A stretch of 64,000 bases of DNA from Desulfovibrionaceae bacterium (GTDB lineage Bacteria > Desulfobacterota > Desulfovibrionia > Desulfovibrionales > Desulfovibrionaceae). A program made the translations under genes and the position numbers. Location of the stretch: contig CAXXDH010000003.1 in the NCBI GenBank assembly GCA_963677785.2, forward strand, positions 2,255,534-2,319,533, read 5' to 3'. The notes beneath the pieces were generated by a model, which worked only from the letters and a program-made list of their open reading frames with translations, was not told where the DNA came from and ran no database searches. Positions 5,730 through 43,323 of this stretch are shown here, piece after piece (the first letter of the stretch is position 1; every line of letters starts with the position of its first letter).

Positions 5730-5744
5730 AAGGAAGGACATGTC

Positions 5745-7986: not shown

Positions 7987-8006
7987 TGCATCCCCATCAA
8001 CGTTTT

Positions 8007-8060
8007 CCTCCTGGAAATCGCCTGCATTATGCCGCTACCCACGGCCCCCCCGGAAGGGGC
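8007..8060 (-). mobile_element. solo inverted copy of the ISL3 left end (IS remnant)
   Basis: The reverse complement of 8007-8060 matches the left end of the intact IS (8167-8220) except for about 9 substitutions. Weaker similarity continues to about 7990. No transposase ORF follows. Confidence 0.55.
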
Positions 8061-8166
8061 AAAAAGGTATTTCCAAGTCCATGACATCAGTTGATAGGCT
8101 GGTCCGAAAAAACCGAGCCAATTCCTGGCTGTCACAGTCGGCATTCACATGCGATTTATATTTGTT

Positions 8167-24523: not shown

Positions 24524-24605
24524 TCCACTTTATCGAAACCACATTCCCTGTTCGCGGCGGCCCTTTACATCAGGGCCGCTGCGTACGGGCTAGAAGGATC
24601 TCATA

Positions 24606-26507
24606 ATGACCACGCCCCAAAGTGCTCCCAATAAAAAGGGCTTTCTGGCCTGGCTGGATGAGAATGCGGAAAAGCCGTTTTTGTGTCTCGGGCTTCTGGC
24701 GATCATTTTGATTATCACATTCCAGACAGCCTATCGCTACATAATCGTAAATTTTTCGGATACTGCCAGTGCCGCCGTTTGGACAGAAGAGCTTTCCCGC
24801 TTCATTTTTATCTGGATTTCTTATCTTGCCGTGCCCTTGGCCATTAAACATCGCGAGAATATTCGTGTTAATATTCTCTACGATAAATTCAGTCCCAGAT
24901 GGCAAAGCATTTTCTGGGTAGTCAACGACCTTTGTTTTCTTTTTCTGGGCGTCTATGTGACCTGCCTGGGCGTGCACATGATCGGAGAAGGCATGCGCTA
25001 TCCCCAGATGGCGCCGGCCATGCAGATCCCGTACTATATTCCTTACTGCATCGTCCCCCTTGGCTTTGCGTTGATCAGTTTTCGACTCATTCAAGATATT
25101 TATCGCGAATTCAAGGTGTGTGGCCTCAAGGATTTTTTCAAAGCGGCCGTCATCACGGCCGTCATCATCGCCCCTGCCTATATCCTCTGGTATCTGCCGG
25201 AATTTGAAGCCTTTGAAAATTTCGAGCCTTCCGCTTCGCTCATCCTTTTCGGCTATTTTCTTCTGGTGCTGGTCATCGGCGTGCCCATCGGCATCGGCCT
25301 GGGCCTGGCGTCGCTTCTGACTATCCTGGCGACCGGAACCATCGACCTCGGATACATTGCCCAGATCAGCTTCACCTCCATCGACAGCTTCCCCATCATG
25401 GCTATTCCCTTTTTCGTGGCCGCGGGCATTTTTATGGGGGAGGGCGGTCTCTCGGAGAGGTTGCTGGCTCTGGCGGATGAAATGCTGGGGGCGCTTCCCG
25501 GCGGCCTGGCCATCGCGTCCGTGGCGACCTGCATGTTCTTTGCCGCCATTTCGGGTTCCGGACCGGCCACAGTGGCCGCCATCGGCTCGTTGACCATTCC
25601 GGCCATGATAAAACGCGGATACAATACCTACTTCGCCTGCGCTATCGTCGCGGCCGGCGGCGCCATCGGCGTTATGATTCCTCCGAGCAACCCATTCGTC
25701 ATTTACGGCGTGTCGGCCCAGACCTCCATCGGCGACCTGTTTCTTGCCGGTATCGTCCCCGGCGTGCTGACCGGTCTGGTGCTCATGGGCTACAGCTACT
25801 GGTACTCCAAGAAAAACGGCTGGATGGGCGAGCCCAGAAAGCGAAGCCTGGGCACCTTTGCCAGGGCCGCATGGGACGCCAAGCTGGCTCTCATGGTTCC
25901 CGTCATCGTGCTCGGCGGCATCTACAGCGGGCTGATGACCCCGACCGAAGCCGCCGCGGTGTCCGCCTTTTATGGCCTGATCGTGGGCATGTTCGTCTAC
26001 AGGGGTTTGAACCGGCACAATATCGTCCGTACGCTGGTGGAAATTTGCTCCACGTCGGCGATCATTATCATTCTGATGGCCATGGCCAAGGTTTTCGGCC
26101 AGATCATGACCGTGGAAGCCATTCCCGCGCAGATCGCCTCGTACATTCTCGGACTGACCAGCAACAAGATCCTGATCCTGCTACTCTTCAACATCTTCCT
26201 GCTGTTTATCGGAACCTTCATGGAAGCCCTGGCCGCCATTGTCATTCTGGTGCCCATTCTGCTGCCCATCGCAGTGAAGGTCGGCGTCGACCCGATCCAT
26301 TTCGGCATCGTCATGGTCGTCAACCTGGCCATCGGTTTCATTACCCCGCCGGTCGGAGTCAACCTCTTTGTCGCTGCGGGCGTGGCCAAGGTGAAACTGG
26401 ATGATATCAGCAAGCACATTGCGCCGATCCTCATCCTGATGATCCTTGTCTTGTTGGCAATTACCTACGTGCCGGAATTGTCCCTGTGGGTTCTCGGTGA
26501 CAAATAA
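24606..26507 (+). CDS. TRAP transporter fused small/large permease (DctQ-DctM)
   Basis: 633 aa. The N-terminal ~170 aa are DctQ-like with 4 TM segments. The remainder is DctM-like (FVAAGIFMGEGGLSERL, ISGSGPATVAAIG). Confidence 0.9.
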   Translation: MTTPQSAPNKKGFLAWLDENAEKPFLCLGLLAIILIITFQTAYRYIIVNFSDTASAAVWTEELSRFIFIWISYLAVPLAIKHRENIRVNILYDKFSPRWQSIFWVVNDLCFLFLGVYVTCLGVHMIGEGMRYPQMAPAMQIPYYIPYCIVPLGFALISFRLIQDIYREFKVCGLKDFFKAAVITAVIIAPAYILWYLPEFEAFENFEPSASLILFGYFLLVLVIGVPIGIGLGLASLLTILATGTIDLGYIAQISFTSIDSFPIMAIPFFVAAGIFMGEGGLSERLLALADEMLGALPGGLAIASVATCMFFAAISGSGPATVAAIGSLTIPAMIKRGYNTYFACAIVAAGGAIGVMIPPSNPFVIYGVSAQTSIGDLFLAGIVPGVLTGLVLMGYSYWYSKKNGWMGEPRKRSLGTFARAAWDAKLALMVPVIVLGGIYSGLMTPTEAAAVSAFYGLIVGMFVYRGLNRHNIVRTLVEICSTSAIIIILMAMAKVFGQIMTVEAIPAQIASYILGLTSNKILILLLFNIFLLFIGTFMEALAAIVILVPILLPIAVKVGVDPIHFGIVMVVNLAIGFITPPVGVNLFVAAGVAKVKLDDISKHIAPILILMILVLLAITYVPELSLWVLGDK

Positions 26508-26521
26508 CTGATGCATTTGAA

Positions 26522-26556
26522 CAAAGCCCTGCAATTTCTTGCAGGGCTTTGTTTCC
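26522..26556 (+). terminator. hairpin terminator after the TRAP permease gene
   Basis: caaagccctgcaa (26522-26534) pairs with ttgcagggctttg (26539-26551) across a 4-nt loop, followed by tttcc. Confidence 0.6.
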
Positions 26557-26646
26557 AAGGCGCGATTCGTGTTTTCTAACCTGGATTATCTTTATTTTCT
26601 AAGAATTGTTATTGACTAAAAGGAATAGAAACATTCCAGGAACCAT

Positions 26647-26662
26647 GTTGCCGTTTTGCAAC
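26647..26662. promoter_or_regulatory. candidate enhancer site GTTGC-N6-GCAAC upstream of the glycyl radical enzyme gene
   Basis: gttgccgttttgcaac lies about 190 nt upstream of the 26843 promoter. It shares the GTTGC/GCAAC half-sites with the palindrome at 23217. Confidence 0.3.
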
Positions 26663-26842
26663 GAACGTATTCACAGGATGCCAAAACGCAACTTCCCCTT
26701 ATCCTGCTTGGTTATTGGATAAAAACAAACGTTTTGAAAAAATGATGCAGGTTTGCACCAGGGGAATACGGCTCCAGGCAAGACAGACGGAATAAATATA
26801 AAAAAATATTATATTTCAACTGGTTGTTTTTGTTTCTTTCGT

Positions 26843-26857
26843 TGGCACAGACTATGC
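26843..26857 (+). promoter_or_regulatory. sigma-54-type promoter of the glycyl radical enzyme operon
   Basis: TGGCACAGACTATGC has a perfect TGGCAC -24 box and GG-N10-GC spacing, 75 nt upstream of the ATG at 26932. Confidence 0.55.
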
Positions 26858-26931
26858 TTAACCCAAAACGGGTTCGTTCATAATTTAAAAAATTTGAAAA
26901 GTCGCAAAACACTTTATAGGAGAACAGACAG

Positions 26932-29412
26932 ATGGAATGCTGCCTCTCGCATCAGGAACAAATGCTGGAAAACAAAATCAAGGGTCTTGATAATCCGCAT
27001 CGCGAAACACACAAGCGCGTCTTCAAGATTCTCGACAGGATCGAAGGGCTCACCCCTTCCATCGACATTCAACGCGCCTTGTATTTTACGCAGTCCATGC
27101 AGGAGACGGAAGGCCAGCACCTGACCTTGCGCTGGGCAAAAGCGCTGTACAATATCGCCGAGAAAATCGATGTGTTCATCGATGAAGACAGCCTGATCTG
27201 CGGCCGTGCCGGCGCCGAAGGCCGCTACGGCATCCTGTATCCGGAGCTGGACGGCGATTTTCTGGATCTGGCGGTCAAAGAGCTGCCCACCCGTGAGAGC
27301 TCTCCCTTCACCATCACCCAGGAAGACGCCGACACGGTTGTCAACGAGATCGCTCCGTACTGGAAGGGCAAAACCTATCATGAAGCCTTGAACAAGGCCT
27401 TCAATTCCGAACTGCACGCGCTGACCTACGATGATCCCGACGGACTGCACTCCCGCTACATCGTCAACGAGACTTCCTCGTTTCGTTCCTGCCTGCAGTG
27501 GGTGCACGACTATGAAGTGATCCTGAAACGGGGCTTCGGCGGCATCCGGCGGGAAATGCAGGAAAAGCTCTACGCCCTGGATCCGTTTTCCCCCATCGAC
27601 AATGTCGAAAAGAAGCCCTTCATCGAAGCCATTATTCTGGTTTGCGACGCCATCACGCTTTGGGCCAACCGTCATGCCGATCTGGCCGAAGAACTGGCCG
27701 CCCAAGAGCAGGATGAAACCCGCAAGGCCGAACTGCTCGAAATGGCCAGAATGTGCCGCAAGGTTCCCGAGCATCCGGCCGAGACCTTTCATGAAGCCGT
27801 GCAGTCCCAGTGGATGACGCAGATGTTTTCCCGTCTGGAGCAGAAGACCGGTACGATTGTCTCCAACGGCAGAATGGACCAGTACCTGTACCCCTATTAC
27901 AAGAAAGACGTGGAAGAAGGCCGCCTGGACGACCTCAAGGCCATGGAACTTATCGAATGCATGTTCGTGGGCATGGCGCAGTTCATCGACCTCTACATCT
28001 CGCCCCAGGGCGGTGATTTCAACGAAGGCTACGCCCACTGGGAAGCCGTCACCGTCGGCGGACAGACCAAGGAGGGCCTGGACGCCACCAACGAACTTTC
28101 TTATCTGTTTCTGCGGTCCAAGCGTGAGTTCCCGCACCATTACCCAGACCTGGCCGCCCGTATTCACGCGCGCGCGCCGCAACGTTTCCTGGCCGAGGTC
28201 GCCGAAACCATCAAGGAAGGCTCCGGATTCCCGAAACTCATCAACGATGAGGAAGTCATTCCCCTGCACCTTTCCAAGGGCGCCACGTTCGAGGAAATCT
28301 ACGACTACGCCATCTCCGGTTGCGCGGAAATCCGTATGCCCAATCGCGATACGTACACTTCCGGCAACCCCTACATCAACTTTGCCGCGGCCATTGAAAT
28401 GGTTTTGTACAACGGCAAAATGCTGAAGTACGGCGACGAACAGCTCGGCCCCGTCACCGGCGATCCCTGCGAATTCAAGAGCTTTGACGAATTCCTCAAC
28501 GCCTACACCGTGCATCACAGGAACCTGCTCCGGAACGCCTTTACCCAGCAGGCCCATGTCATCAACCTGCGCAAGGATCATTTCGCGGCTCCGCTGGCCG
28601 ACGCCATGCATGCGCTTTGCCGTAAATACTACGTTGACATCCATCAGCCCGACGTGCCCGAAGGCATCGACCTCGGCTACTTCGAAGTCATCGGCTACGG
28701 TACGGTCATTGATTCGCTGGCCGCCGTCAAGAAGCTGGTGTTCGAAGACAAGAAGCTGACCATGAAACAGGTCATCGACGCGTGCAAAGCCAACTTTGAG
28801 GGCTACGAAGACGTCAAGGCGCTGCTCAAGACCGCTCCCTGCTACGGCAACAACGACGAATACGCCGACAAGCTCGGCAAATATGTGGACGCCCTGAGCG
28901 TAGAATACGCGGAAGCCTACCAGATGGAACTGGGCGTGCACCTGGACGTACGCTACGTACCGTTCACTTCGCATGTTCCGTTCGGACGCGTGGTCTCCGC
29001 CACTCCCAACGGCCGCGTGGCCTGGTACCCGCTCTCCGACGGTTCGTCCGCCTCGCACGGTGCGGACAAGAACGGCCCCACCGCCATTCTGATGTCCAAC
29101 TACACCACGAAAAACTTCAGCCACCGCGAGCGCGCCGCCCGCCTGGTCAACATCAAGTTCACTCCCAAATGCGTCGAGGGCGAGGAAGGGACGCAAAAGC
29201 TGGTCGACCTGATCCGGGCCTACTGCGACCTGCGCCTGTGGCACATTCAGTTCAACGTTATCAACGCGGATACCCTGATCAAGGCCCAGAAGAATCCCGA
29301 GCATTACCGCAACCTGATCGTACGTATCGCGGGTTACTCGGCCTACTTCTGCGACCTGTCCAAGGATCTTCAGGATGATTTGATCGCACGTACCGCACAC
29401 GAAGTCCTGTAA
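26932..29412 (+). CDS. islA: glycyl radical enzyme of the 1,2-eliminase class, probably isethionate sulfite-lyase
   Basis: 826 aa. C-terminal glycyl-radical motif [10 protein letters not shown] (G801) and Cys loop SGCAEI (C464, E466). R185, Q189 and R674 sit where I recall the sulfonate-binding residues of IslA, at a constant -4 offset. Adjacent activase, TRAP transporter and TauE. The family call is secure. The substrate call is recollection plus context. Confidence 0.85.
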
Positions 29413-29425
29413 CGCCGCAAGGACT

Positions 29426-29466
29426 AAAAGGGGCAGGGGACGGCTCTGCCCCTTTTGTTCGTTTTC
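29426..29466 (+). terminator. intercistronic hairpin between the radical enzyme and its activase (possible attenuator)
   Basis: aaaaggggcag (29426-29436) pairs with ctgcccctttt (29446-29456), followed by gttcgtttt. Confidence 0.45.
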
Positions 29467-29489
29467 GCAGAACCCAACAAGGAAAACCG

Positions 29490-30416
29490 ATGAGCTCGAT
29501 TATGGACAAGAAAATCAAGGGAACCGTTTTCAGTGTACAGAAATATTCCGTACATGATGGTCCCGGCATCAGAACCATTGTGTTCATGAAGGGCTGCTCA
29601 CTGCACTGCACCTGGTGTTCGAATCCCGAATCCCAGGAGTTCAAACCGCAAATCGCCTATAATCGAAACAATTGCATCGGCGTTGAGAACTGTACGCATT
29701 GTATGAAGCATTGTGCGGGCGGCGGCATAAGCGCCGGTGCGGACGGCAAGGTCGACGTCGACCATGGCAAAATCAAAGACGAACTTTTGCTGGCGGACGT
29801 CTGTCCGGGCAATGCCATCATCGTTTATGGCGAAGAGCAGAGCGTGGATACGATTCTGAAGCGGGTGGAGGAGGACGAGCGCTTCTACGCCCGTTCCGGC
29901 GGCGGCATGACGCTTTCCGGCGGCGAGCCCTTTGCCCAGCCCGAATTTGCGCTTGCGCTGCTGCGCGAAGCCAAGGTCCGGCGTATCAATACGGCTGTGG
30001 AAACCTGCGGACAGGCTCCCTGGGAGGTCATTGAATCCTGCCTGCCGTACGTGGACTATATCCTGTACGACATCAAGTCCATGGATGATGCGAAGCACAA
30101 GGAACATACCGGGCGTACCGGAGCGCATATCCGGGAAAATCTCGTCAAAATCAAAGAAAAATTTCCTAAAATCAAGATTCGGGTCCGTACGCCGGTTATC
30201 CCCGGTTTCAACGACAGCGTAGAGGACATCCAGGCGATTATCGACTTTGTGAAATCCTTGCCCGGTGAAAAGTGCGAATACGAGGCGCTGCCTTTCCACC
30301 GTATGGGGCAGCCCAAATACATTAATCTTGGAAGAGACTACGCCTATGCGGACATCGTCAAACTGGATGATACGCTCGTTGCCGCAATCAAGAATCTGGA
30401 AGAAGAATATAAATAA
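29490..30416 (+). CDS. islB: glycyl-radical enzyme activating protein (radical SAM)
   Basis: 308 aa. CSLHCTWCSNPE radical-SAM cluster motif plus an additional Cys-rich ferredoxin-like insert (CIGVENCTHCMKHC...). Immediately downstream of the radical enzyme. Confidence 0.85.
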   Translation: MSSIMDKKIKGTVFSVQKYSVHDGPGIRTIVFMKGCSLHCTWCSNPESQEFKPQIAYNRNNCIGVENCTHCMKHCAGGGISAGADGKVDVDHGKIKDELLLADVCPGNAIIVYGEEQSVDTILKRVEEDERFYARSGGGMTLSGGEPFAQPEFALALLREAKVRRINTAVETCGQAPWEVIESCLPYVDYILYDIKSMDDAKHKEHTGRTGAHIRENLVKIKEKFPKIKIRVRTPVIPGFNDSVEDIQAIIDFVKSLPGEKCEYEALPFHRMGQPKYINLGRDYAYADIVKLDDTLVAAIKNLEEEYK

Positions 30417-30482
30417 AAATAGCTAGTTATGCTGGTCATGGAGTTGCTTTTTCCTTGGCCAACAAGAAAATGTTCAGCCAAA

Positions 30483-30520
30483 GGGCTGGTTGTCCGAGCG
30501 GGATAACCGGCCCTTTTTTT
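30483..30520 (+). terminator. rho-independent terminator after the activase gene
   Basis: gggctggtt (30483-30491) pairs with aaccggccc (30505-30513, one G-U pair), followed by T7 (30514-30520). Confidence 0.6.
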
Positions 30521-30679
30521 CATTCCCCTTTCAGCGACAAATGTACGGACCGAAAAATCCTGGCTAGTGGGTCTATTGACGAACAGTACCAAAAAAGGCA
30601 TCAATAATTTTGATCGTATTTATTGATTATTAAATTATGAAGCGATACTCAGCAGTCACTGCACCAGCCAGGAGGGACC

Positions 30680-33400
30680 ATGTCAGCCAGCAAGGCGTAT
30701 GAGTTTGCGTTCACCGTGGATAATGAAAAGCCGGACGATACGTTTACCGTCGTCAGTTTCAAGGGGCACGAGTATGTTTCCAAACCCTATCGTTTTGAAA
30801 TCGTGCTGGCCGCGGACGATCCCAATCTCAAGGCCGAGGATTTTGTCCATCAAACCTGTCACCTGAAAATTACCGGACATGATAAAGACGCTCCGCGGAT
30901 CATTTCCGGGGTTGTCTTTCTGTTTCGCCATATCCGGCGCCTGAATGGCAAATACGTCTACCAGGTCGTGCTGATGCCCCGTTTGCAGCTGCTGACGTTG
31001 AACACCCGGACCCGGGTGTTTCTGAAGCAGAGCTGCCTGACCATGATTGAAAACATCCTCAAAGATGCGGACATCGAATACAAGATCCGTATCGCCGGAA
31101 ATCAGAGCTACCCGCAACGGGAGTACTCCTGCCAGTTCGAGGAAACGGATTTCGCCTTTGTCAGCCGTTGGCTGGAAAAGCAGGGCATTGTTTATTTTTT
31201 TGAAGAGCGTGAGGATGGAAAGGCTGATATTCTGGTGCTGGCCGACGCCAATGACGCACAGGCGCCCTGCCGTAAAGACAACAAGGCCATGCGTTATACG
31301 CCCGCTTCGGGCATGCATGCCGGAAGGCGTGAAGACGTGGTGCAAACCTTTGTTTCCGAACATGGCAGCACCCCGAAGTACATTCACTTGCGTGATTACA
31401 GCTATGAAGGCCAGCCGGCCGATCCCAGGGCCTCGGCCGAAGTGCAGAACAAGACAGCCATGGGCGTTGTCTGGCAGTACGGCAATACCTTTTTGTCCGA
31501 ACACTACGGCGTGGGCGGGGAAACCATTCTGGCCCAGCAACTGGAAAGTACGGAAGCCGCCTACCAGGGTGAATCCTTTTGCCCTGACCTGCGCGCCGGC
31601 ACCACCATGAAGCTGGAAAAGCATTACCGCGACGAATACAACGATGAGTTCTATCTCTACCATGTCACACATGAGGGCGTGAACAAGAAGTTCGTGTCGC
31701 ATCCCCCCGAAAGTGGTGCTCATGAACATCATCCAGGTCATGATCCGCGCCAGCCCGATAGAGGTTCCCATGAGCACCATCCCAATCACGATCCGCACCA
31801 TCCCGACCAGGGGCAAATGTACTCAAACGTATTCAATGCCGCACCTGCCAAAGTCCATTACCGTCCGCGCATGCTGACGCCGGTGCCGCGTTTCACAGGC
31901 ATGCTCACCGCCTTTATCCATGCCGAAGGCGACATGGATCTTTTCGCGCAAATGGACGACAAGGGGCGCTACAAAGTGCGTATGCCGTTCGACCTCTGGG
32001 AACCGAAAAAACAAAGTGCGGAACCCGATGCGAAAGGCAAGGCGTCCCATTGGATCCGGCTGACAGAACCCTTTGCAGGCAATGCGTTGGGAGAAAAAGC
32101 GTACGGCATGCATTTTCCATTGTACCAGGGCACGGAAGTGCTGCTCAGCTTTGTTGAAGGCGACATCGACCGCCCTGTGATCGTGGGGGCGCTCTACAAC
32201 CAATCCCACGACAATCCGGTCAACAATGCCGACCCCTACCGGAATGTTATCCGAACCAAGAACGGATGCAAACTGGAAATGTACGACAAGCCAGGGCACG
32301 AATCCATTGCCATGGCCTGTCCGAACAATGAATCCCTGGTGGTCTGCAATCCGCAAGGCGTTACCGTGGGGGCCAAGGAAAATGCCTATTCATTCAAAGT
32401 GAGCGACAGCTTCGACGTGAAAGTAGGTTCGGACGTTTCCTTCTCGGCCGGTTCCAGCACCAGCGCCTTCGGCGGGACCAAAGCCAGCCTGACCGTTGGT
32501 TTCCACACCAGTATGACTGTAGGGATGTCTGTTTCCGCGGATTTGGGCGGCAAGGTGGATATCGGCGGGAAGAAAAACCTGGTCCATTCGGATTTCAGCG
32601 GTTCAGCAGAAGATACGCTGTCCTTGAAAGGCGGCATGAACGTGGCGCTGAAAAAATATTACAAGGCCATCAAATATGCGCTGGGTATCGGAGGCCTGGG
32701 ATCGATCCCAACCGGGTTGGGCAGCTGGGCGGCTGTTGCCGGAGCAACGCACCAGAACAAGGATATCCACGACACGGCGGCGATCATCGGGGGATCTGTC
32801 TCTACAAGCCTCGGGCTGCTGGTCGAAACCTTCGGCAGGACCATCGGCATAGGAACCTATAAGGCGGTGAGTTCGAAAAAGAAGGACGCCATGTATACGG
32901 GCATCCTGAATCTGGGCAAGGACGGCGCCGGACTGCTTGTGAACAGTCCGGTGGGGAGCAGCGGGAAATGCAGCATCAGTGTCACCAATCTTCTGGGTAA
33001 AACGTCGGAGTTTTCCATCAGTCCCCAGGGGAAGCACATGTCGCTGACGAACTGCGAAGATGCCGTTATGATGTTCAGCGAGGGGAAGTCTATAGAATTG
33101 TATACTTTTAATCGGAGTTCTGTATCAGGCATGGTCAATCTGGTAGAACTTAAGCAGGCTTCGTTGTCGTTGAAACATAAAGCCAACAGTGCATTGAGCC
33201 TGGAAGACAATTTGATTACCTTGGAAACCAAGCCAAGCAAGATAGGAATGGATCCAAAGGGGCTTTTACTCAAAGCCGATGATTCCAATTTCATCGACAT
33301 CGGGAGCACCGGCATTCAGATGAAATTCACTAAACCCACCAAAATCAGCAGTTCAAGCAGTTTGAAGCTAAACTCAGAAGGCATGGTCATGCTGGGTTGA
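30680..33400 (+). CDS. vgrG: type VI secretion spike protein VgrG (paralogue 1, with a His-rich insert and a long C-terminal extension)
   Basis: 906 aa. gp27-like N-terminus (YRFEIVLA..., QFEETDFAFVSRWLEKQGIVYFFE) and gp5 OB-fold (GTEVLLSFVEGDIDRPVIVGALYN), then about 340 aa of beta-helix-like extension. AGGAGG RBS. Confidence 0.9.
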   Translation: MSASKAYEFAFTVDNEKPDDTFTVVSFKGHEYVSKPYRFEIVLAADDPNLKAEDFVHQTCHLKITGHDKDAPRIISGVVFLFRHIRRLNGKYVYQVVLMPRLQLLTLNTRTRVFLKQSCLTMIENILKDADIEYKIRIAGNQSYPQREYSCQFEETDFAFVSRWLEKQGIVYFFEEREDGKADILVLADANDAQAPCRKDNKAMRYTPASGMHAGRREDVVQTFVSEHGSTPKYIHLRDYSYEGQPADPRASAEVQNKTAMGVVWQYGNTFLSEHYGVGGETILAQQLESTEAAYQGESFCPDLRAGTTMKLEKHYRDEYNDEFYLYHVTHEGVNKKFVSHPPESGAHEHHPGHDPRQPDRGSHEHHPNHDPHHPDQGQMYSNVFNAAPAKVHYRPRMLTPVPRFTGMLTAFIHAEGDMDLFAQMDDKGRYKVRMPFDLWEPKKQSAEPDAKGKASHWIRLTEPFAGNALGEKAYGMHFPLYQGTEVLLSFVEGDIDRPVIVGALYNQSHDNPVNNADPYRNVIRTKNGCKLEMYDKPGHESIAMACPNNESLVVCNPQGVTVGAKENAYSFKVSDSFDVKVGSDVSFSAGSSTSAFGGTKASLTVGFHTSMTVGMSVSADLGGKVDIGGKKNLVHSDFSGSAEDTLSLKGGMNVALKKYYKAIKYALGIGGLGSIPTGLGSWAAVAGATHQNKDIHDTAAIIGGSVSTSLGLLVETFGRTIGIGTYKAVSSKKKDAMYTGILNLGKDGAGLLVNSPVGSSGKCSISVTNLLGKTSEFSISPQGKHMSLTNCEDAVMMFSEGKSIELYTFNRSSVSGMVNLVELKQASLSLKHKANSALSLEDNLITLETKPSKIGMDPKGLLLKADDSNFIDIGSTGIQMKFTKPTKISSSSSLKLNSEGMVMLG

Positions 33401-33572: not shown

Positions 33573-36185
33573 ATGGCGGAGAAACATCCATTTGCATTCG
33601 CGTTCAGCGTGGAAGGCCTGGACTCGGATACCTTTTCCGTGGTCAGTTTCAAAGGGTACGAGCATCTTTCCAGGCCGTACCGTTTTGAAATTGTGCTGGC
33701 ATCCGCCGAATCCGAACTGGATTTCGCGAAGATCCTATACAAACCCTGCACACTGGAAATACGCGGCAAGGGCGAGCCGAGGATTTTCAGCGGCCTGGCG
33801 TACCTGTTCCGCCATGTCCGGCAGGCGGGCAAACGCTACATCTACCAGCTGCTGCTTATGCCCAGGCTGCAGCAGCTGTCCATTGGCGCCAACGCGCGGG
33901 TGTTTCTGGACAAGAGCTGCATCAGCGTCATCGAAGAGGTGTTCAAGCAGGCGCACGTGCCTTATCAAAACCGGATGCAGAGCAACAGCGCCTATCCCAA
34001 GCGCGAGTATATCTGCCAGTTCAACGAATCCGATTTCAATTTCGTCAGTCGCTGGCTCGAAGCCCAGGGAATTCACTACTTTTTCGAACAGCAGCAGAAC
34101 TCCGAACTGCTGGTGCTGAGCGACACCAGCCTGGCCCATGTTCCCTGCCGCGAGAAGGACGCGCCCATGGTCTACGCGCCGCCTTCGGGCCTGGACCATT
34201 TGCAGCGTGAAGACGTGGTCCATTCGTTTATCTCCGAACATTGCTGTCTGCCCGAGTCCGTCAGTTTCAAGGATTACAACTACGAGCTGTCCAAGGCCGA
34301 AGTGACGGCAACGCAACAGGTCGACTCCAACGGACAGCATACGGAGTACCACTACGGCGACAATTTTCTCGGTCAGGGCTACGGCACCAGTCCGGCCCAG
34401 GTGCTCGCCCAGCAGTATGGAAGCCTGGAGGGCGTTTTCCATGGCAAGAGTTATTGTCCGGATCTGCGTACGGGGACGACTTTTGCGCTCAAGGATCATT
34501 ACTACACGAAATACAACGCCAATTACCTGCTGTACAGCGTCGAGCATGAAGGTACGGACCTGAGATTTATGAAACAGGAGCTCTCCGGGCCGGACCGCAG
34601 CGAAACTCAGCTCTACGAAAACACTTTTCGCGCGCTCCGGGCCGATGTCACCTACCGGCCGCGTCGTACGACCACCGTGCCCCGCTATACGGGCTTGCTG
34701 ACCGCGGTTATCGACGCTGAAGGACAGGGGCAGTACGCCGAACTCGACTCCAAAGGGCGCTATAAGGTCCGCCTGCCTTTTGATTCGGAGGACAAAGCCC
34801 AAGGCAAGGCCTCGCACTGGATCCGTCTGTCCGAACCCTACGCGGGCAACGCGGCTCAGGAACAGGCCTTCGGCATGCATTTTCCGCTGCTCAAAGGCAC
34901 GGAGGTCTTGCTCAGCTACGTGGAAGGGGACATTGACCGCCCCATCATCGTCGGTGCCGTATACAACGCCAACAATGAAAATCCGGTCAACAGCGGCAAC
35001 AAGGTCCAGAACGTCATCAAAACCAAGGGCGGCAACCGCATTGTGCTGGATGACACGGAGGGAAAGGAATCCATCTCGATGGCCACAGCCGGAGGCAAGT
35101 CCATGCTGGTCATCAATGCGGACGGCGTGAATCCCGGCATCACCGAAGCGACCACGGAAAAATGCGTCAAGGCCAGCTGGAACGACAGCGTGGAAGCCAA
35201 ATGCGGCTCCAGCATGGATTTTACCGCGGGTTCTTCGCTGGGGGCTTTCGGCGGCACCAAGTCCGAGATCACCGTGGGATTCAGCTCGGGCGTATCGGTC
35301 GGCGCGTCTCTGGAAGCGGCGCTTGGCGGCAAGGTGGAACTGGGCGAGACCAGCAGCTGGATCAGCTCCGAATCCTCCTCGTCAGCGGACGAGAACGTCA
35401 GCCTGCAGGGGGGCATGAACACCGTGGTCAAGGGGTATTACAAAGCCATCAAGGCTTCCATGATCGTGGCTTCGGTGAGTTCGCTGGCCACGGGCGTGGG
35501 CTCCTGGGCCGCCATTGCCGGGGCCAATGAAGACAACCTGGGCATCAACCGCAAGGCCGCGGTCATTGCCGGGTCCATCGTGGGCAGCATCGGCCTCATC
35601 GGCCAGATTGCCGGCACGGCCTTTGCCATGGGCTGCTACCTGAAGATGAAGTCCAAAAAGAGCAATTCCTTTTATACGACCACAATGGATCTGGGCAAGG
35701 ACGGCGCCGCACTCACGGTACGCAGTTCGCTCCTGCACAACGTGGGCTGCGATATCATGGTCGTGGACGGGCAGAACGCCAATCCGCTCAAGAGCAACGC
35801 GTCCGTGCTGTCCATCGCGCCCAAGGGCGCGTCCATTACCCTGGCCAATAAGGCCAAAGCCAAGATTACCCTGGACAAAGGCCAGAAAATTACTCTGGAC
35901 CTGAACAACGGCAGCAAAAAAATTGAAATGAGTTCCTCAGGTATTTCCATGGCCAGCCAGGGCGTTGCCGCGGTCAAGATAACAACGAGCCAGCTCATTC
36001 TGCAAAAGGACAACGCCGCGAACATCAAACTCGGTTCGGGTGGCGCGTTCATCAAGGGCGACGGCACCGGCCAGAACTACATCAACGTGACCAGCTCCGG
36101 CGTACGCATGCAGTTTGCCAACGGCCAGCTCACGAGCAAAGGCATGCTCAGGGCCAACGCCAACGGCATGATCATGCTGGGCTAG
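33573..36185 (+). CDS. vgrG: type VI secretion spike protein VgrG (paralogue 2)
   Basis: 870 aa, collinear with paralogue 1 (YRFEIVLA, QFNESDFNFVSRWLEAQGIHYFFE, GTEVLLSYVEGDIDRPIIVGAVYN). It has the same C-terminal architecture and tail ...GMIMLG. Confidence 0.9.
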   Translation: MAEKHPFAFAFSVEGLDSDTFSVVSFKGYEHLSRPYRFEIVLASAESELDFAKILYKPCTLEIRGKGEPRIFSGLAYLFRHVRQAGKRYIYQLLLMPRLQQLSIGANARVFLDKSCISVIEEVFKQAHVPYQNRMQSNSAYPKREYICQFNESDFNFVSRWLEAQGIHYFFEQQQNSELLVLSDTSLAHVPCREKDAPMVYAPPSGLDHLQREDVVHSFISEHCCLPESVSFKDYNYELSKAEVTATQQVDSNGQHTEYHYGDNFLGQGYGTSPAQVLAQQYGSLEGVFHGKSYCPDLRTGTTFALKDHYYTKYNANYLLYSVEHEGTDLRFMKQELSGPDRSETQLYENTFRALRADVTYRPRRTTTVPRYTGLLTAVIDAEGQGQYAELDSKGRYKVRLPFDSEDKAQGKASHWIRLSEPYAGNAAQEQAFGMHFPLLKGTEVLLSYVEGDIDRPIIVGAVYNANNENPVNSGNKVQNVIKTKGGNRIVLDDTEGKESISMATAGGKSMLVINADGVNPGITEATTEKCVKASWNDSVEAKCGSSMDFTAGSSLGAFGGTKSEITVGFSSGVSVGASLEAALGGKVELGETSSWISSESSSSADENVSLQGGMNTVVKGYYKAIKASMIVASVSSLATGVGSWAAIAGANEDNLGINRKAAVIAGSIVGSIGLIGQIAGTAFAMGCYLKMKSKKSNSFYTTTMDLGKDGAALTVRSSLLHNVGCDIMVVDGQNANPLKSNASVLSIAPKGASITLANKAKAKITLDKGQKITLDLNNGSKKIEMSSSGISMASQGVAAVKITTSQLILQKDNAANIKLGSGGAFIKGDGTGQNYINVTSSGVRMQFANGQLTSKGMLRANANGMIMLG

Positions 36186-36247: not shown

Positions 36248-36428
36248 TAGGGGCTGTCTCTAAATTATTGTCTGCTACGTTTGGCTAGAATTCCATCATG
36301 CTGCGTTTTCAGAAAAAAATGCCCCTTGACGTAGCAACACTACGCCTGCGGCCCATTTTCTTCTTCAGCCTTGCCTGTTGAAATTCTTGCTCAAACTCGC
36401 GACGAAAATAATTTAGAGACAGCCCCTA
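36248..36428. mobile_element. MITE-like element: 181 bp bounded by 22-bp perfect terminal inverted repeats ending in TA
   Basis: taggggctgtctctaaattatt (36248-36269) and aataatttagagacagccccta (36407-36428). There is no ORF inside. The right repeat supplies the last ~12 codons and the stop of the ORF 36391..36861. Confidence 0.4.
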
Positions 36429-36861
36429 GTATAATCTCATACGAATACCGAGCCCAGTCACATCTCACAATAACATCAAGTTCCGGCCTATAACACTCAC
36501 ATCGGACCGATAAACTATAGCGTATTCTCTGTTGCGGTAAAATAGATAGATTTAAAGCGATTGCTTTTTTGCCAGATTTATTTGTTTTTGCAGTGACTGT
36601 CCCATAATTACTGCTTTTGTAAACTTCAATTGTTCCGACTGGAATTTTGACATTCGTTATTACGATTTTATTTTTTGTTGCATTATATATTGAGAATTCA
36701 ACATCATATCCCGTTTCTGTGGACGTATACTTTTCTAGACTGACAGTAGGAATACCGTCTATACGTTTACGCCACCAAACAACCAAGGAAAGAACTGCGA
36801 GCAAGCCGCCACATACTAACGATAAAAGGTTTGCCCACCATCCAAACGACATAGTTTCCAT
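36391..36861 (-). CDS. hypothetical membrane-anchored protein in an A/T-rich patch
   Basis: 156 aa. One N-terminal TM helix (WWANLLSLVCGGLLAVLSLVVWW) followed by a beta-rich region. Composition is very different from the flanking vgrG and rpe genes. Confidence 0.45.
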   Translation of the reverse strand: METMSFGWWANLLSLVCGGLLAVLSLVVWWRKRIDGIPTVSLEKYTSTETGYDVEFSIYNATKNKIVITNVKIPVGTIEVYKSSNYGTVTAKTNKSGKKAIALNLSILPQQRIRYSLSVRCECYRPELDVIVRCDWARYSYEIILGAVSKLFSSRV

Positions 36862-37652: not shown

Positions 37653-38330
37653 ATGTCTGCCGAATCGCGCGTCATATTGACGCCATCGTTGCTGTCGTCT
37701 GATTTTTCCCGTATCGGGGAGGAGTTGAAAGCCCTGGAGCAGGCCGGATTGTCCTGGGTGCACTGGGACGTGATGGATGGTCGTTTCGTCCCCAACATCA
37801 CCTTCGGCCCGCCCGTGATCAAGGCCTGCCGCAAGTGCTGCGGGTTGTTTTTCGACGTCCATCTGATGATCAAGGAACCCGACCGCTATCTGCAGGATTT
37901 TGCCGATGCCGGCGCCGACCTGCTTTGCGTGCACGCGGAAGCCTGCGTGCATCTCGAACGTACGGTCAGTGAAATCGCACGGCTGGGCGTCAAGCCCGCC
38001 GTGGCCCTGAACCCGCATACGCCTCTGGAATTCGTTGAATACCTGCTGCCGCAGCTCCATATGGTGCTGATCATGAGTGTGAACCCCGGGTTCGGCGGCC
38101 AGAGCTTCATCCCCTTCAGCATGGCGAAAATCCGCCGCCTGCGCCGGATGATCGACGAGCAGAAAGCCGATACGCTGATTCAGGTGGACGGCGGCGTCTC
38201 ACCGGGCAACATCCGCGAACTGGTTGAATTCGGAGCCAATGTCTTTGTCTCGGGCTCGGCCTTTTTCAACCATCCGCCCTACGATACGCGCTACAAGACA
38301 TTCATGGAGGCCGCTTTGCCCGACGGTTAG
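37653..38330 (+). CDS. rpe: ribulose-phosphate 3-epimerase
   Basis: 225 aa. LTPSLLSSDF, HWDVMDGRFVPNITFG, FDVHLMI, MSVNPGFGGQSF, QVDGG motifs. AGGAG RBS. Confidence 0.95.
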   Translation: MSAESRVILTPSLLSSDFSRIGEELKALEQAGLSWVHWDVMDGRFVPNITFGPPVIKACRKCCGLFFDVHLMIKEPDRYLQDFADAGADLLCVHAEACVHLERTVSEIARLGVKPAVALNPHTPLEFVEYLLPQLHMVLIMSVNPGFGGQSFIPFSMAKIRRLRRMIDEQKADTLIQVDGGVSPGNIRELVEFGANVFVSGSAFFNHPPYDTRYKTFMEAALPDG

Positions 38331-38361: not shown

Positions 38362-38760
38362 TCACGAGTTGACCATGACTTTGACCTGGCTGGGCGCGAT
38401 GCAGGAGCCCACGATATTGCCGTTGTTGTGCTGGGTCACATCCCCCATACGCACGGCAAAGGCGCCTTCCAGCTTGACCTTGTTGCTGCTCATGGAGAAT
38501 TCGGTCTTCTGCATAAAGGTTGAAGATTTGACTCCTCCGGCCACGCCCGGGTTGTCCCCGTTGGTCACCGGGATCTTGGAGGATTTGTTCAGGGCGGGCA
38601 TGCCGCATACAACCACTTTTTTGGTCACGGGCTGGGCCATGGAGGGCACGGCCAGATTGGGGTAGGGCACTGGCGTGGGCTGGCCCGTGGGCGGCAGGGG
38701 GGTCTTGCAAAGGTCGGGCGTACCCTGTGCCAGGCCGCCTTGGGTGGTGCAACACTGCAT
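38362..38760 (-). CDS. PAAR-like DUF4150 protein (T6SS spike tip), with no toxin extension
   Basis: 132 aa. PTPVPYPNLA..., ...KKVVVCGMPALNKSSKIPVTNGDNPGVAGGVKS... pattern of DUF4150 PAAR-like domains. Last gene of the convergent operon. AGGAG RBS. Confidence 0.8.
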   Translation of the reverse strand: MQCCTTQGGLAQGTPDLCKTPLPPTGQPTPVPYPNLAVPSMAQPVTKKVVVCGMPALNKSSKIPVTNGDNPGVAGGVKSSTFMQKTEFSMSSNKVKLEGAFAVRMGDVTQHNNGNIVGSCIAPSQVKVMVNS

Positions 38761-38806: not shown

Positions 38807-39475
38807 TTATCCCAAATGGATCCGTTCGCCGTCGATGCTGACGTCTTCATCGGCCAGCACTTTTGCCTTGCCCGCTTTCAGGTGATAGCTTTCATCCACC
38901 CGGGTCCGCATCCGTTTGGCTTCCACGGTGTCCAGATTCGAGACCCGGCGCAGGCTGTCCCGGATGTTCTGCACCACCAGGCGCACCGTGCTGCGCATGC
39001 TGTCCAGCAAAATAGTGGCCTTGTGCGCGCGGGTTTCCACCCGAAAGGCCGAGAGGCCGAAATCAACAAAATGGGCGCTGCCCGAGACACCGCGCAGGCT
39101 GATGTCCGGGCTGTTCAGGGCCAGTCCCTGCTGCGCTTCGATTTCCACTTTGCCGGGCAGGGAAAGCGTACTGCTGTCGGGAGTGCTTTTTTCCAGCACG
39201 TTGAGAATATAGCCCGAGCCGTTGCCCGCCACAAAAGCCAGCACCAGATCGCCGGGTTCGGGCAGCAGCAGGCAGCCGGCGGCCCGGCGTGCGCGGAGCA
39301 GCGAGCCGTTTTCAAGAGCCAAGGAAAAAAAGCCTGCTTCCCCGGCGTCGCCCGCTTCCCGGTTATCCCCGGCCAAAACATTGCCCTGCAGCAGCTCTCC
39401 CGGCATTCCAGGGGCGGAATGGTCGCCGGGTTTGGATTTCATGGGTTTGAAAGAAAGCACTTTCATCTCTTTCAT
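38807..39475 (-). CDS. DUF3540-like protein
   Basis: ORF 38807..39646 trimmed to the ATG at 39475 (MKEMKVLSF...), which has AGGAGA upstream and lies just after the upstream stop at 39495. The size, the position between the pentapeptide protein and the PAAR-like gene, and the tail ...DGERIHLG fit DUF3540 as I recall it. Confidence 0.6.
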   Translation of the reverse strand: MKEMKVLSFKPMKSKPGDHSAPGMPGELLQGNVLAGDNREAGDAGEAGFFSLALENGSLLRARRAAGCLLLPEPGDLVLAFVAGNGSGYILNVLEKSTPDSSTLSLPGKVEIEAQQGLALNSPDISLRGVSGSAHFVDFGLSAFRVETRAHKATILLDSMRSTVRLVVQNIRDSLRRVSNLDTVEAKRMRTRVDESYHLKAGKAKVLADEDVSIDGERIHLG

Positions 39476-39494
39476 TCGTTTTTCTCCTGAGGCG

Positions 39495-43054: not shown

Positions 43055-43323
43055 GGGCTCCTCAATACGCCGTGTGGAGTGTTTATTCACCCTGAACGTA
43101 TCTTATGCGCTGGCAAGCAAAAAAAAGCAACCGGCCGGTGTTGTGGAGCGGCATTCTTCCCAACGCCGCCCCTTTGCCGCCGGGCTTCTTTTGATACGAT
43201 CAATAGTGAATGTCTATATGCTTTTTGGGGTTTTATCAATGAACGAACACTGGTTGGAGCCTGTAAAGAGGTCTTTTGCAATTGGTTGACAGGCTGTCCC
43301 GCCGCAACTATAGCGAACAATAC

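What the first reader, a model, noticed from the sequence alone, without database searches (positions are those of the whole stretch)
31700..31813. Histidine-rich tandem insert in the gp27-like head of VgrG1
VgrG1 carries HPPESGAHEHHPGHDPRQPDRGSHEHHPNHDPHHPDQG, which has 11 His in 38 residues. It is organised as two 13-aa units, HEHHPGHDPRQPD and HEHHPNHDPHHPD. Its paralogue VgrG2 has only a short ordinary loop (...QELSGPDRSETQ...) at this position. The flanking sequences align (…HEG..K.F… / …Y.N.F.A….YRP), so this is a discrete insertion. H-x-H-H-P-x-H-D repeats are typical of Zn/Ni/Cu-binding loops. A metal-binding loop displayed three times on the trimeric spike could load metal onto the spike or make firing or assembly metal-dependent. 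It could also link this T6SS to metal competition, which so far has been attributed to separate secreted metallophore proteins rather than to VgrG itself.
Basis: partly seen in the sequence, partly recalled or inferred. Interest (0 to 1): 0.65.

Follow-up and report, generated by a model that had tools for sequence, protein, structure and literature searches.

The report
Histidine-rich loop insert in a VgrG spike
One of two tandem type VI secretion spike (VgrG) genes of a Desulfovibrionaceae bacterium carries a real, unique, disordered 38-residue histidine/proline-rich insert in a normally short variable loop of the spike head; it looks like a selected metal- or pH-responsive tract, but no metal role is shown and it is known from one genome only.

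Summary
VgrG1 (window 30680..33400, 906 aa) has HPPESGAHEHHPGHDPRQPDRGSHEHHPNHDPHHPDQG at aa 341-378 (nt 31700..31813), with 11 His in 38 residues. It consists of two HEHHPxHDPxxPD units with a 16-aa/48-nt period. The insert sits at the tip of a β-hairpin of the gp27-like head. AlphaFold2 gives pLDDT 42-52 there and the stretch has no hydrophobic residue, so it is almost certainly disordered and exposed.

This loop is the length-variable loop of VgrGs: 15-50 aa, median 24, in 181 homologues. Only this protein is strongly His-rich. Its two orthologues keep a 3-His core (HRHWQPHDP; HQHGH), and 123 of 181 loops have no His. Nothing similar was found among 1.84 billion representative proteins, PDB, Pfam or JGI metagenome DNA.

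The two units are nearly saturated at silent sites (pS 0.63) but conserved in protein (dN/dS about 0.13, Fisher p 0.009). The repeat is therefore old and probably selected, not a fresh slippage product.

Metal binding is chemically plausible but untested. No metal-uptake gene or Fur box lies nearby. At most about 12 ions per spike argues against metal transport. The position in the trimer was not determined.

Verdict: a new variant of a known kind, of modest interest.

The parts
30680..33400 (+). vgrG1, T6SS spike protein TssI/VgrG, 906 aa, carrying the insert
   Evidence: Pfam Phage_GPD aa 31-335 (1.6e-59) and Phage_base_V aa 454-506. TIGR03361 291.5 bits against cut-off 186. Foldseek 4mtk_A E 2.6e-43.
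31646..31684 (+). β-strand aa 323-335 (…EFYLYHVTHEGVN), the N-terminal arm of the hairpin that bears the loop
   Evidence: AF2 model: strand E323-335; the 10-residue pLDDT blocks covering it read 98 and 88. H331 is invariant in 114 homologues.
31700..31813 (+). His/Pro/Asp-rich insert, aa 341-378, 11 His in 38 residues, predicted disordered
   Evidence: pLDDT 42-52, no secondary structure. No hydrophobic residue; net charge about +6 at pH 5 and about -5 at pH 8.
31721..31759 (+). Repeat unit 1 core, HEHHPGHDPRQPD (aa 348-360)
31769..31807 (+). Repeat unit 2 core, HEHHPNHDPHHPD (aa 364-376)
   Evidence: Against unit 1, over the 16-codon register: 5 codons differ only synonymously and 5 change the amino acid. 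Nei-Gojobori Sd 6.0, Nd 6.0, dN/dS 0.13.
31814..31846 (+). β-strand aa 379-389 (QMYSNVFNAAP), the C-terminal arm of the hairpin, leading to the YRP motif and the OB-fold neck
   Evidence: AF2 strand E379-389; the following pLDDT block is 97. Y381 is invariant; N383 and F385 are at least 90% conserved.
33573..36185 (+). vgrG2, tandem paralogue (870 aa, 42% identical) with a short 15-aa loop without His
38362..38760 (-). PAAR-like (Tox-PAAR-like/DUF4150-type) tip protein of the island
   Evidence: Pfam PF13665, 1.4e-35.
38807..39475 (-). DUF3540 protein (TvpC-like). The listed ORF runs to 39646, but the likely start is Met58 at 39475.
   Evidence: Pfam PF12059, 2.1e-35, matching aa 108-279 of the ORF. 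Class definition from PMC13373197.
39495..40499 (-). Pentapeptide-repeat protein (TvpB-like)
   Evidence: Pfam Pentapeptide, 3e-50.
40520..43090 (-). DUF2169 + pentapeptide-repeat protein (TvpAB-like PAAR chaperone)
   Evidence: Pfam DUF2169 2.1e-62 plus Pentapeptide 3.2e-38. PMC13373197.

Best explanation
The insert is a lineage-specific expansion of the naturally length-variable loop at the tip of the last β-hairpin of the gp27-like head of a T6SS VgrG. An ancestral small His cluster (HxH…H-D-P), shared by the three known orthologues, was lengthened and internally duplicated (16-aa period). The result is an intrinsically disordered, hydrophobic-free tract with 11 His and 7 Asp/Glu, present three times per spike trimer.

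I think it most likely acts as a selected, multidentate, low-to-moderate-affinity binding tract for divalent metals (Zn/Ni/Co/Cu). Its charge and compaction would change with metal occupancy and with pH. This would tune how this particular VgrG paralogue interacts with its surroundings (hub/baseplate, the first Hcp ring or a partner protein). It would not carry nutritionally meaningful amounts of metal.

Shown: existence, repeat structure, uniqueness, predicted disorder, location in the primary and secondary structure, age of the duplication, and the signal of purifying selection.

Inferred: solvent exposure, metal binding, and any effect on assembly or firing.
For: - Composition: 11 His + 4 Asp + 3 Glu + 8 Pro in 38 aa, with no hydrophobic residue.
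- Structure: coil with pLDDT 42-52 between two high-confidence strands.
- Insertion-tolerant site: the loop spans 15-49 aa (median 24) in 114 aligned homologues and up to 50 aa in 181. Long non-His inserts arose independently in P0124, P0135, P0163, P0193 and P0209.
- His enrichment is clade-specific, not random. Loops with at least 3 His occur only in the window protein (11), its two orthologues P0002 and P0003 (3 each) and one unrelated VgrG. 123 of 181 loops have none, and the background His frequency in loops is 1.6%.
- Selection on the units: pS 0.63, dS about 1.4, dN 0.17, dN/dS 0.13, Fisher p 0.009. For comparison, the window and L001 orthologues have pS 0.45-0.52 and dN/dS 0.13 over the folded head. 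The duplication is therefore about as old as the species split, and the motif has been kept.
- Chemical precedent: a 35-aa His/Pro-rich HRG peptide (GHHPH repeats; 17 His, 4 Asp/Glu) binds up to six Zn2+ without a single preferred site (PMC5988744).
- The nonapeptide HEHHPHHDP also occurs just upstream of the CxxC in a Fur/Zur-like protein in metagenome loci L039/L056. Read from the sequence only, no domain scan was run; that this region is the metal-site region rests on my own knowledge of Fur-family proteins.
Against: - There is no experimental metal data.
- Only one genome carries the full insert, so selection cannot be tested at population level.
- The dN/dS test rests on 16 codons, and the repeat was recognised because the protein sequence is similar (ascertainment bias).
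- The nearest orthologue works, presumably, with one degenerate unit, and the paralogue with none. The tract is therefore not needed for basic VgrG function.
- No metal-related gene or Fur-type box lies nearby.
- The position of the loop in the assembled trimer and baseplate was not determined.
- T6SS core genes are not in the window.
Confidence: 0.42

Rival explanations
1. Tolerated, functionally neutral low-complexity expansion. The loop accepts almost any hydrophilic insert, and this one happens to be His-rich. It would bind metal in vitro, but that has no biological consequence.
For: The loop is hypervariable in length and sequence across VgrGs, and five or more unrelated long inserts exist. 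The full insert occurs in one genome only. It is predicted disordered. The paralogue and orthologues lack it. There is no metal-related context.
Against: Silent sites between the units are near saturation while 11 of 16 residues, including all four core His, are kept (dN/dS 0.13, p 0.009). A His cluster is retained in all three orthologues down to 47% identity, whereas 68% of VgrG loops have no His.
Confidence: 0.28
2. A pH or charge switch, or a polyanion/membrane-binding tract, independent of metals. The 11 His titrate near neutrality, so the loop flips from acidic to strongly basic on mild acidification. This would change binding to an anionic surface or partner.
For: The computed net charge of the insert goes from about -5 (pH 8) through 0 (pH about 6.4) to +6 (pH 5). 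The HRG His/Pro-rich region, the closest compositional analogue, is regulated by Zn2+ in its interaction with heparin (PMC4309485 and PMC5372734, abstracts listed); that it also responds to pH is from my own knowledge.
Against: Nothing indicates that this spike meets an acidic compartment. The interspersed Asp/Glu and HxHH spacing fit chelation at least as well. Untested.
Confidence: 0.1
3. A paralogue-specific docking or recognition site. The loop marks VgrG1 for a specific partner (cargo effector, adaptor or baseplate variant), possibly through a metal-bridged contact. This would distinguish it from the four other VgrG paralogues of the same genome.
For: The genome encodes at least five VgrG paralogues (P0001, P0004, P0007, P0008, P0021, all on the 4,259,066-bp contig). 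The VgrG1 clade also has a second private loop insertion in the OB-fold domain. Variable loops are the obvious place for paralogue discrimination.
Against: Known VgrG-cargo and VgrG-PAAR/Tvp contacts map to the C-terminal prism and tip, not the head (PMC13373197; PMC10433429). No candidate partner with a complementary His/Cys-rich patch was found in the window.
Confidence: 0.1
4. The spike itself is a metal shuttle (a 'metallophore VgrG'). It would be loaded with metal in the cytoplasm or scavenge it outside, linking this T6SS to metal competition.
For: His density comparable to dedicated metal-binding tracts. T6SS-dependent metal acquisition exists in other bacteria (PMC4489752; PMC10433429). 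A sulfide-producing host would plausibly face scarce free Zn/Ni/Co/Cu (inference from general knowledge).
Against: Capacity is at most about 4 ions per loop and about 12 per fired spike, by ligand counting as. Known systems use separate, abundantly secreted proteins with cognate outer-membrane receptors and Zur/Fur/OxyR control. No such receptor, transporter or regulator box is present here.
Confidence: 0.06

Closest known systems
Canonical T6SS VgrG/TssI spikes (P. aeruginosa VgrG1 PA0091, PDB 4MTK/4UHV; E. coli c3393, 2P5Z)
   Same: Same gp27-like head plus gp5 OB-fold architecture. Passes TIGR03361 and TIGR01646. Foldseek E 2.6e-43 to 4mtk. The insert sits in the loop between the invariant H(331)-x-G and Y(381)-x-N-x-F strands that all VgrGs share.
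   Different: Typical loops are about 24 aa and usually contain no His. Here the loop is 49 aa with 11 His. 'Specialised' VgrGs are described as carrying additional C-terminal domains (PMC10433429); this is an internal head-loop insert.
Class III Tvp-associated VgrGs (Serratia marcescens VgrG1 with TvpAB/TvpB/TvpC/Paar1; PMC13373197)
   Same: The island encodes DUF2169+pentapeptide, pentapeptide, DUF3540 and PAAR-like proteins next to long (870-906 aa) VgrGs. The same neighbourhood is kept in relatives L002/L003; L001 keeps the vgrG pair and the downstream ORF pattern.
   Different: The tvp-paar genes here converge on the vgrG pair and are separated from it by rpe and a small ORF, rather than lying directly downstream. 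No His-rich head loop is described for that class.
His/Pro-rich region of vertebrate histidine-rich glycoprotein (GHHPH repeats)
   Same: Short tandem His-Pro units (HHPGH, HHPNH, HHPD compared with GHHPH), interspersed acidic residues and disorder. The 35-aa HRG peptide binds up to six Zn2+ at multiple non-unique sites (PMC5988744).
   Different: No homology: PDB, Pfam and word-index searches with the insert peptide found nothing, and the exhaustive 1.84-billion-protein search with aa 300-420 found no similar loop outside the two orthologues. Different protein context and kingdom. This is a resemblance of composition only.
T6SS metal-scavenging effectors (YezP, TseM, TseF, azurin, TssS)
   Same: They would share the general theme of a T6SS-exported metal-binding polypeptide (PMC4489752; PMC10433429).
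   Different: Those are separate secreted proteins working with dedicated receptors or transporters under stress or metal regulators. Here the tract is part of the structural spike, and no receptor, transporter or regulator site was found.
Iron-loaded phage spike tips (P2 gpV, phi92 gp138: HxH motifs from three chains coordinate one Fe) - from my own knowledge, not checked here
   Same: An HxH motif in a trimeric membrane-piercing spike protein.
   Different: There the HxH is in an ordered apex domain on the three-fold axis at the C-terminal tip. Here it is in a disordered loop of the N-terminal head.

Membership tests
T6SS spike protein VgrG/TssI | gp27-like hub domain (Pfam Phage_GPD) | tested here: met
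   aa 31-335, E 1.6e-59
T6SS spike protein VgrG/TssI | gp5-like OB-fold domain following the hub in the same chain | tested here: met
   Phage_base_V aa 454-506, E 1.5e-07, above the cut-off
T6SS spike protein VgrG/TssI | Passes the curated T6SS VgrG models | tested here: met
   TIGR03361 291.5 bits (cut-off 186.35); TIGR01646 231.8 bits (cut-off 121.8)
T6SS spike protein VgrG/TssI | Fold matches solved VgrG structures | tested here: met
   Foldseek: 4mtk_A E 2.6e-43, 7q5p, 4uhv; 2p5z TM(target) 0.87
T6SS spike protein VgrG/TssI | C-terminal trimeric β-helical prism | tested here: inconclusive
   The monomer AF2 model has pLDDT below 50 at aa 570-644 and 671-720, two helices at aa 655-732, and confident β-strands at aa 739-905. 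A trimer model is needed.
T6SS spike protein VgrG/TssI | T6SS core genes (TssA-M, Hcp, ClpV) in the same genome | not testable with these tools
   None lie in the 64-kb window. Look-ups of the paralogues from the same genome were not on record.
Class III Tvp accessory system (PMC13373197) | DUF2169 protein with a pentapeptide-repeat extension (TvpAB) | tested here: met
   40520..43090 (-): DUF2169 2.1e-62 plus Pentapeptide 3.2e-38
Class III Tvp accessory system (PMC13373197) | Separate pentapeptide-repeat protein (TvpB), DUF3540 protein (TvpC) and DUF4150/PAAR-like protein | tested here: met
   39495..40499 (-) Pentapeptide 3e-50. 38807..39646 (-) DUF3540 2.1e-35 and 38362..38760 (-) Tox-PAAR-like 1.4e-35.
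Class III Tvp accessory system (PMC13373197) | tvp-paar genes directly downstream of the cognate vgrG, same strand | tested here: not met
   They are on the opposite strand, converging on the vgrG pair, with rpe and a 156-aa ORF in between. The same arrangement is seen in L002/L003.
Multi-His metal-binding tracts (HRG His-rich region, His-rich loops of ZnuA/ZIP/CDF type) | High local His density with interspersed Asp/Glu in a disordered segment | tested here: met
   11 His + 7 Asp/Glu in 38 aa; pLDDT 42-52
Multi-His metal-binding tracts (HRG His-rich region, His-rich loops of ZnuA/ZIP/CDF type) | Sequence homology to a characterised tract | tested here: not met
   No hit in PDB at E up to 10, none in Pfam, none in the 5.8-billion-protein word index with the peptide, and no similar loop outside the orthologues in the exhaustive search with aa 300-420
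Multi-His metal-binding tracts (HRG His-rich region, His-rich loops of ZnuA/ZIP/CDF type) | Measured metal binding | not testable with these tools
   Needs ICP-MS, ITC or chelator competition on recombinant protein
T6SS metal-acquisition systems (YezP/TseM/TseF type) | Separate secreted metal-binding effector with a cognate receptor or transporter and metal or stress regulation | tested here: not met
   The tract is part of VgrG. No TonB-dependent receptor or metal ABC/ZIP gene is in the window. The best Fur-consensus match upstream is 11/19, equalled at 194 other places in the window.

The most novel reading that the evidence does not exclude
The VgrG head itself carries a selected multi-histidine metal-binding module. 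Spike assembly, hub-baseplate or Hcp docking, or partner recruitment of this paralogue would then depend on metal (or pH). This would be the first structural T6SS component whose use is gated by metal availability, in a sulfide-producing bacterium for which free transition metals are scarce.
Probability: 0.15. Interest if true: 0.6.

Novelty: new variant of a known kind. Interest (0 to 1): 0.35.

Why it matters
Metal-related T6SS functions are so far attributed to separate secreted effectors (YezP, TseM, TseF, azurin, TssS; PMC10433429). Modified VgrGs are known for C-terminal effector domains. A selected metal- or pH-responsive tract inside the hub-forming head would be a different way to regulate or specialise one spike paralogue among several in a genome. 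It would also show that the variable head loop can host functional modules.

If the tract turns out to be only a tolerated expansion, the result is still useful. It marks this loop as an insertion-tolerant site in VgrG (15-50 aa in nature), which could serve for tagging or engineering spikes. Because the feature is known from a single uncultured Desulfovibrionaceae genome, its general importance is limited for now.

Tried and rejected
- Fur-box scan with the 19-mer consensus over the window and L001. The vgrG1 upstream region reaches only 11/19 matches, as do 194 other places in the window. No σ54-type -24/-12 promoter was seen by eye in 30400..30700.
- Peptide-only searches for the insert. 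The 5.8-billion-protein word index gave no candidate (one search failed on a parameter limit). PDB gave nothing at E up to 10. Pfam gave only a meaningless DUF7929 hit at E 0.27.
- Degenerate DNA pattern for HEHHPxHDP in JGI metagenomes. It matched 67 loci, none of them a VgrG. Most are out-of-frame matches in GC-rich DNA. Only a Fur/Zur-like protein (L039/L056) and an (HTHEHG)n protein (L024) look real.
- Locating the T6SS core cluster. Look-ups of the paralogues P0008 and P0021 were not on record. P0016 in the sister genome lies in another orphan vgrG-tvp island.
- Locating the loop in a solved VgrG trimer from the literature. The structural papers (Leiman 2009; Spínola-Amilibia 2016) are not held, and the papers that could be read do not describe this loop. 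The structure tool returns no coordinates, so exposure in the trimer is inferred only.
- Literature search for His-rich or metal-binding VgrG loops found nothing relevant.
- Rejected as explanations: an assembly or frameshift artefact (the frame is continuous and both flanks align to the paralogue and orthologues), and a coding gene on the opposite strand (the 377-aa antisense ORF 30683..31816 overlaps a strongly supported VgrG frame).
Full report
**Observation.** The ORF at window 30680..33400 (+) encodes a 906-aa protein. The quoted peptide HPPESGAHEHHPGHDPRQPDRGSHEHHPNHDPHHPDQG is aa 341-378, encoded by nt 31700..31813 exactly as reported. It contains 11 His, 8 Pro, 4 Asp, 4 Gly and 3 Glu, and no V/I/L/M/F/W/C. 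The rest of the protein has 24 His in 868 residues. The two 13-aa cores, HEHHPGHDPRQPD (aa 348-360) and HEHHPNHDPHHPD (aa 364-376), are 16 residues apart. Tandem Repeats Finder reports a 48-nt period, 2.1 copies and 77% matches at 31706..31806. The tandem paralogue VgrG2 (33573..36185, 870 aa, 42% identity) has only FMKQELSGPDRSETQ there, and both flanks align. The only correction is that the repeat period is 16 aa, not 13.

**What the protein is.** VgrG1 has Pfam Phage_GPD (aa 31-335) and Phage_base_V (aa 454-506). It passes the curated T6SS spike models: TIGR03361 at 291.5 bits against a cut-off of 186, and TIGR01646 at 231.8 against 121.8. An AlphaFold2 model built on 114 homologues (mean pLDDT 76.7) matches solved VgrG spikes best: 4mtk E 2.6e-43, 7q5p, 4uhv, and 2p5z with target TM 0.87. 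It is a genuine VgrG/TssI.

**Where the insert sits.** It lies between two long, confidently predicted β-strands, aa 323-335 (ending in the invariant His331 of 'HEG') and aa 379-389 (the invariant/near-invariant Y-x-N-x-F). It is therefore at the tip of the last β-hairpin of the gp27-like head, just before the YRP motif and the OB-fold neck. The insert is modelled as coil with pLDDT 42-52. Given this and the absence of any hydrophobic residue, I infer that it is disordered and solvent-exposed. I could not determine where it lies in the trimer, relative to the Hcp-docking face or relative to the baseplate wedges. The structure tool returns no coordinates, and the primary structural papers are not in the library.

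**How unusual it is.** In 114 aligned homologues the His331-Tyr381 loop is 15-49 aa long (median 24), and the window protein has the longest. Adding the hits of an exhaustive HMMER search of aa 300-420 against 1.84 billion representative proteins gives 181 loops in all. Of these, 123 have no His, 42 have one and 12 have two. At least three His occur only in the window protein (11), its two orthologues (3 each) and one unrelated VgrG, P0215 (AHREHDEH). Other VgrGs independently carry inserts of 38-50 aa at the same site, but these are Pro/Gly/acid-rich and not His-rich (P0124, P0135, P0163, P0193, P0209). The site is therefore an insertion-tolerant, hypervariable loop, and the His-rich content is essentially unique. 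The insert peptide alone finds nothing in the 5.8-billion-protein word index, in PDB or in Pfam. A degenerate DNA pattern for HEHHPxHDP found 67 metagenome loci, none in a VgrG. Most are out-of-frame matches. The real-looking exceptions are a Fur/Zur-like protein (CQHEHHPHHDPVFMVCQRCG; identified from the sequence alone, no domain scan) and an (HTHEHG)n protein.

**Origin.** The only close relatives are two:
- P0002, 71% identical, from a Desulfovibrionaceae MAG (OY762289.1, 6.3 Mb; locus L001).
- P0003, 47% identical, from an ENA metagenome (loci L002/L003).

The window therefore most likely comes from a Desulfovibrionaceae genome; its own contig is 4.26 Mb. P0002 has one degenerate unit (HRHWQPHDPGKKD). 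It shares H-x-H-x-x-x-H-D-P-x-x-x-D with the window units and aligns at the DNA level on CATGATCC. P0003 has HQHGH. The most economical history is an ancestral small His cluster in this VgrG1 clade, lengthened in the common ancestor of the window and L001 lineages and duplicated in the window lineage.

**Age and selection.** Across the 16-codon register the two units differ at 5 purely synonymous codons and 5 amino-acid-changing codons. Nei-Gojobori gives Sd 6.0 over 9.5 synonymous sites (pS 0.63, dS about 1.4) and Nd 6.0 over 38.5 non-synonymous sites (dN 0.17). That is dN/dS 0.13, Fisher p 0.009. For scale, the window and L001 orthologous genes have pS 0.45-0.52, with dN/dS 0.13 over the folded head and 0.26 overall. 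The duplication is thus about as old as that species split, not a recent slippage event. The unit has evolved under constraint comparable with the folded domain. There are caveats. The test uses only 16 codons. The repeat was noticed because its protein sequence is conserved. No population data exist.

**Context.**
- vgrG1 and vgrG2 are tandem.
- Downstream lie a 156-aa ORF with a hydrophobic N-terminal stretch and no Pfam hit (36391..36861, -) and rpe (37653..38330).
- Converging on these is a PAAR-like gene (38362..38760), DUF3540 (38807..39475), a pentapeptide-repeat gene (39495..40499) and DUF2169+pentapeptide (40520..43090).
- This gene set is the Class III Tvp accessory system described for Serratia VgrG1-Paar1 (PMC13373197), although here it is on the opposite strand.
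- The arrangement is conserved in L002/L003, which have three tandem vgrGs; L001 keeps the vgrG pair and the downstream ORF pattern.
- Upstream are a glycyl-radical enzyme, its activase and a TRAP transporter.
- No T6SS core genes lie in the window, and no metal transporter, receptor or metalloregulator was found among the larger ORFs scanned.
- The best match to the Fur consensus upstream of vgrG1 is 11/19, which 194 other places in the window also reach.

**Mechanism.** Eleven His and seven carboxylates in a flexible 38-aa tract will almost certainly bind Zn/Ni/Co/Cu. The compositionally closest studied tract is a 35-aa peptide of the HRG His/Pro-rich region (GHHPH repeats). It binds up to six Zn2+ with no single preferred site (PMC5988744). 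By the same ligand counting, the VgrG1 loop could hold about 4 ions, or at most about 12 per trimeric spike. That is far too few for nutritional metal transport. Known T6SS metal acquisition uses separate secreted proteins with dedicated uptake routes (PMC4489752; PMC10433429).

- *Preferred explanation (0.42).* A selected multidentate metal-binding tract whose occupancy, and hence charge and compaction, tunes how this paralogue's head interacts with its surroundings. The gp27-like ring is the hub for Hcp polymerisation and is surrounded by TssKFGE wedges. The step from 'binds metal' to 'modulates assembly' is inference.
- *Neutral tolerated expansion (0.28).* Favoured by the loop's variability and the singleton status; disfavoured by the selection signal and the clade-wide His core.
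- *Metal-independent pH/charge switch (0.10).* The computed net charge goes from -5 at pH 8 to +6 at pH 5.
- *Paralogue-specific docking site (0.10).*

**Comparison with the known, and novelty.** The protein is a member of the VgrG family and is associated with a Class III Tvp-like module. The insert has no homologue. It resembles HRG-type and other His-rich metal tracts in composition only. I found no report of a His-rich or metal-binding loop in a VgrG head. I file it as a new variant of a known kind. Interest is modest (0.35). The feature is real, unique and probably selected. It is also known from one uncultured genome, sits in a loop that tolerates many inserts, and has no contextual link to metal biology.

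**Limits.** There is no trimer or baseplate model. T6SS core genes were not seen. There are no expression or biochemical data. The selection test is small.

Noticed in passing
window 32642..32875 (VgrG1 aa 655-732): Two hydrophobic, Gly-rich helices (YALGIGGLGSIPTGLGSWAAVAGA and TAAIIGGSVSTSLGLLVETFGRTIGIG) lie between β-rich parts of the C-terminal prism in the AF2 model. The closer ~860-925-aa relatives share this C-terminal region, and most end in a similar …(I/M)(M/Q/K)(L/V)G tail (GMIMLG in the VgrG2 paralogues; GMVMLG in VgrG1). They look like glycine-zipper or membrane-active segments, which is unusual inside a VgrG prism.
   Followed up: partly
window 31994..32038 (VgrG1 aa ~439-453): A second loop insertion private to the VgrG1 clade (LWEPKKQSAEPDAKG) in the OB-fold region. 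It is shared with orthologues P0002 and P0003 but absent from VgrG2 and other paralogues, and has pLDDT below 50.
   Followed up: no
window 30597..30635; L001 ~5925..5965: An AT-rich element upstream of vgrG1 (GGCATCAATA…TGAT…TATTnATnATT) is shared between the window and the orthologous locus. It may be a regulator site. It does not match the Fur consensus (11/19).
   Followed up: partly
window 23501..30416: TRAP transporter genes (DctP, then a fused DctQ-DctM), followed by an 826-aa glycyl-radical enzyme (PFL-like) and its radical-SAM activase. This looks like a sulfonate (isethionate-type) or similar lyase operon, as found in Desulfovibrionaceae. That assignment is from my own knowledge and was not tested.
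   Followed up: no
window 36391..36861 (-): A 156-aa ORF with a hydrophobic N-terminal stretch and no Pfam hit lies between vgrG2 and rpe. It could be an immunity or accessory protein of the island.
   Followed up: no
window 4001..9483: A low-GC stretch (0.35-0.40 against about 0.55 elsewhere) lies next to an ISL3-family transposase (8230..9483). It is probably horizontally acquired DNA.
   Followed up: no
L002 5205..13491; L003 5207..13491: The related metagenome locus has three tandem vgrG genes instead of two. In the second copy of the contig (L003) the first and third are split into fragments, so the vgrG array is evolutionarily dynamic.
   Followed up: partly
L039, L056, L024 (metagenome loci): The nonapeptide HEHHP(H/A)HDP recurs just upstream of the CxxC in a protein that reads like a Fur/Zur-family regulator (L039/L056; not scanned against any family library) and next to (HTHEHG)n repeats (L024). 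These are short-motif coincidences that fit a metal-ligand role.
   Followed up: partly
L071/L072 10001..16800: The sister genome has another orphan island with vgrG, DUF2169-pentapeptide, an unknown gene and a PAAR-like gene, all on one strand. These genomes therefore carry several vgrG-tvp islands away from any T6SS core cluster seen here.
   Followed up: no
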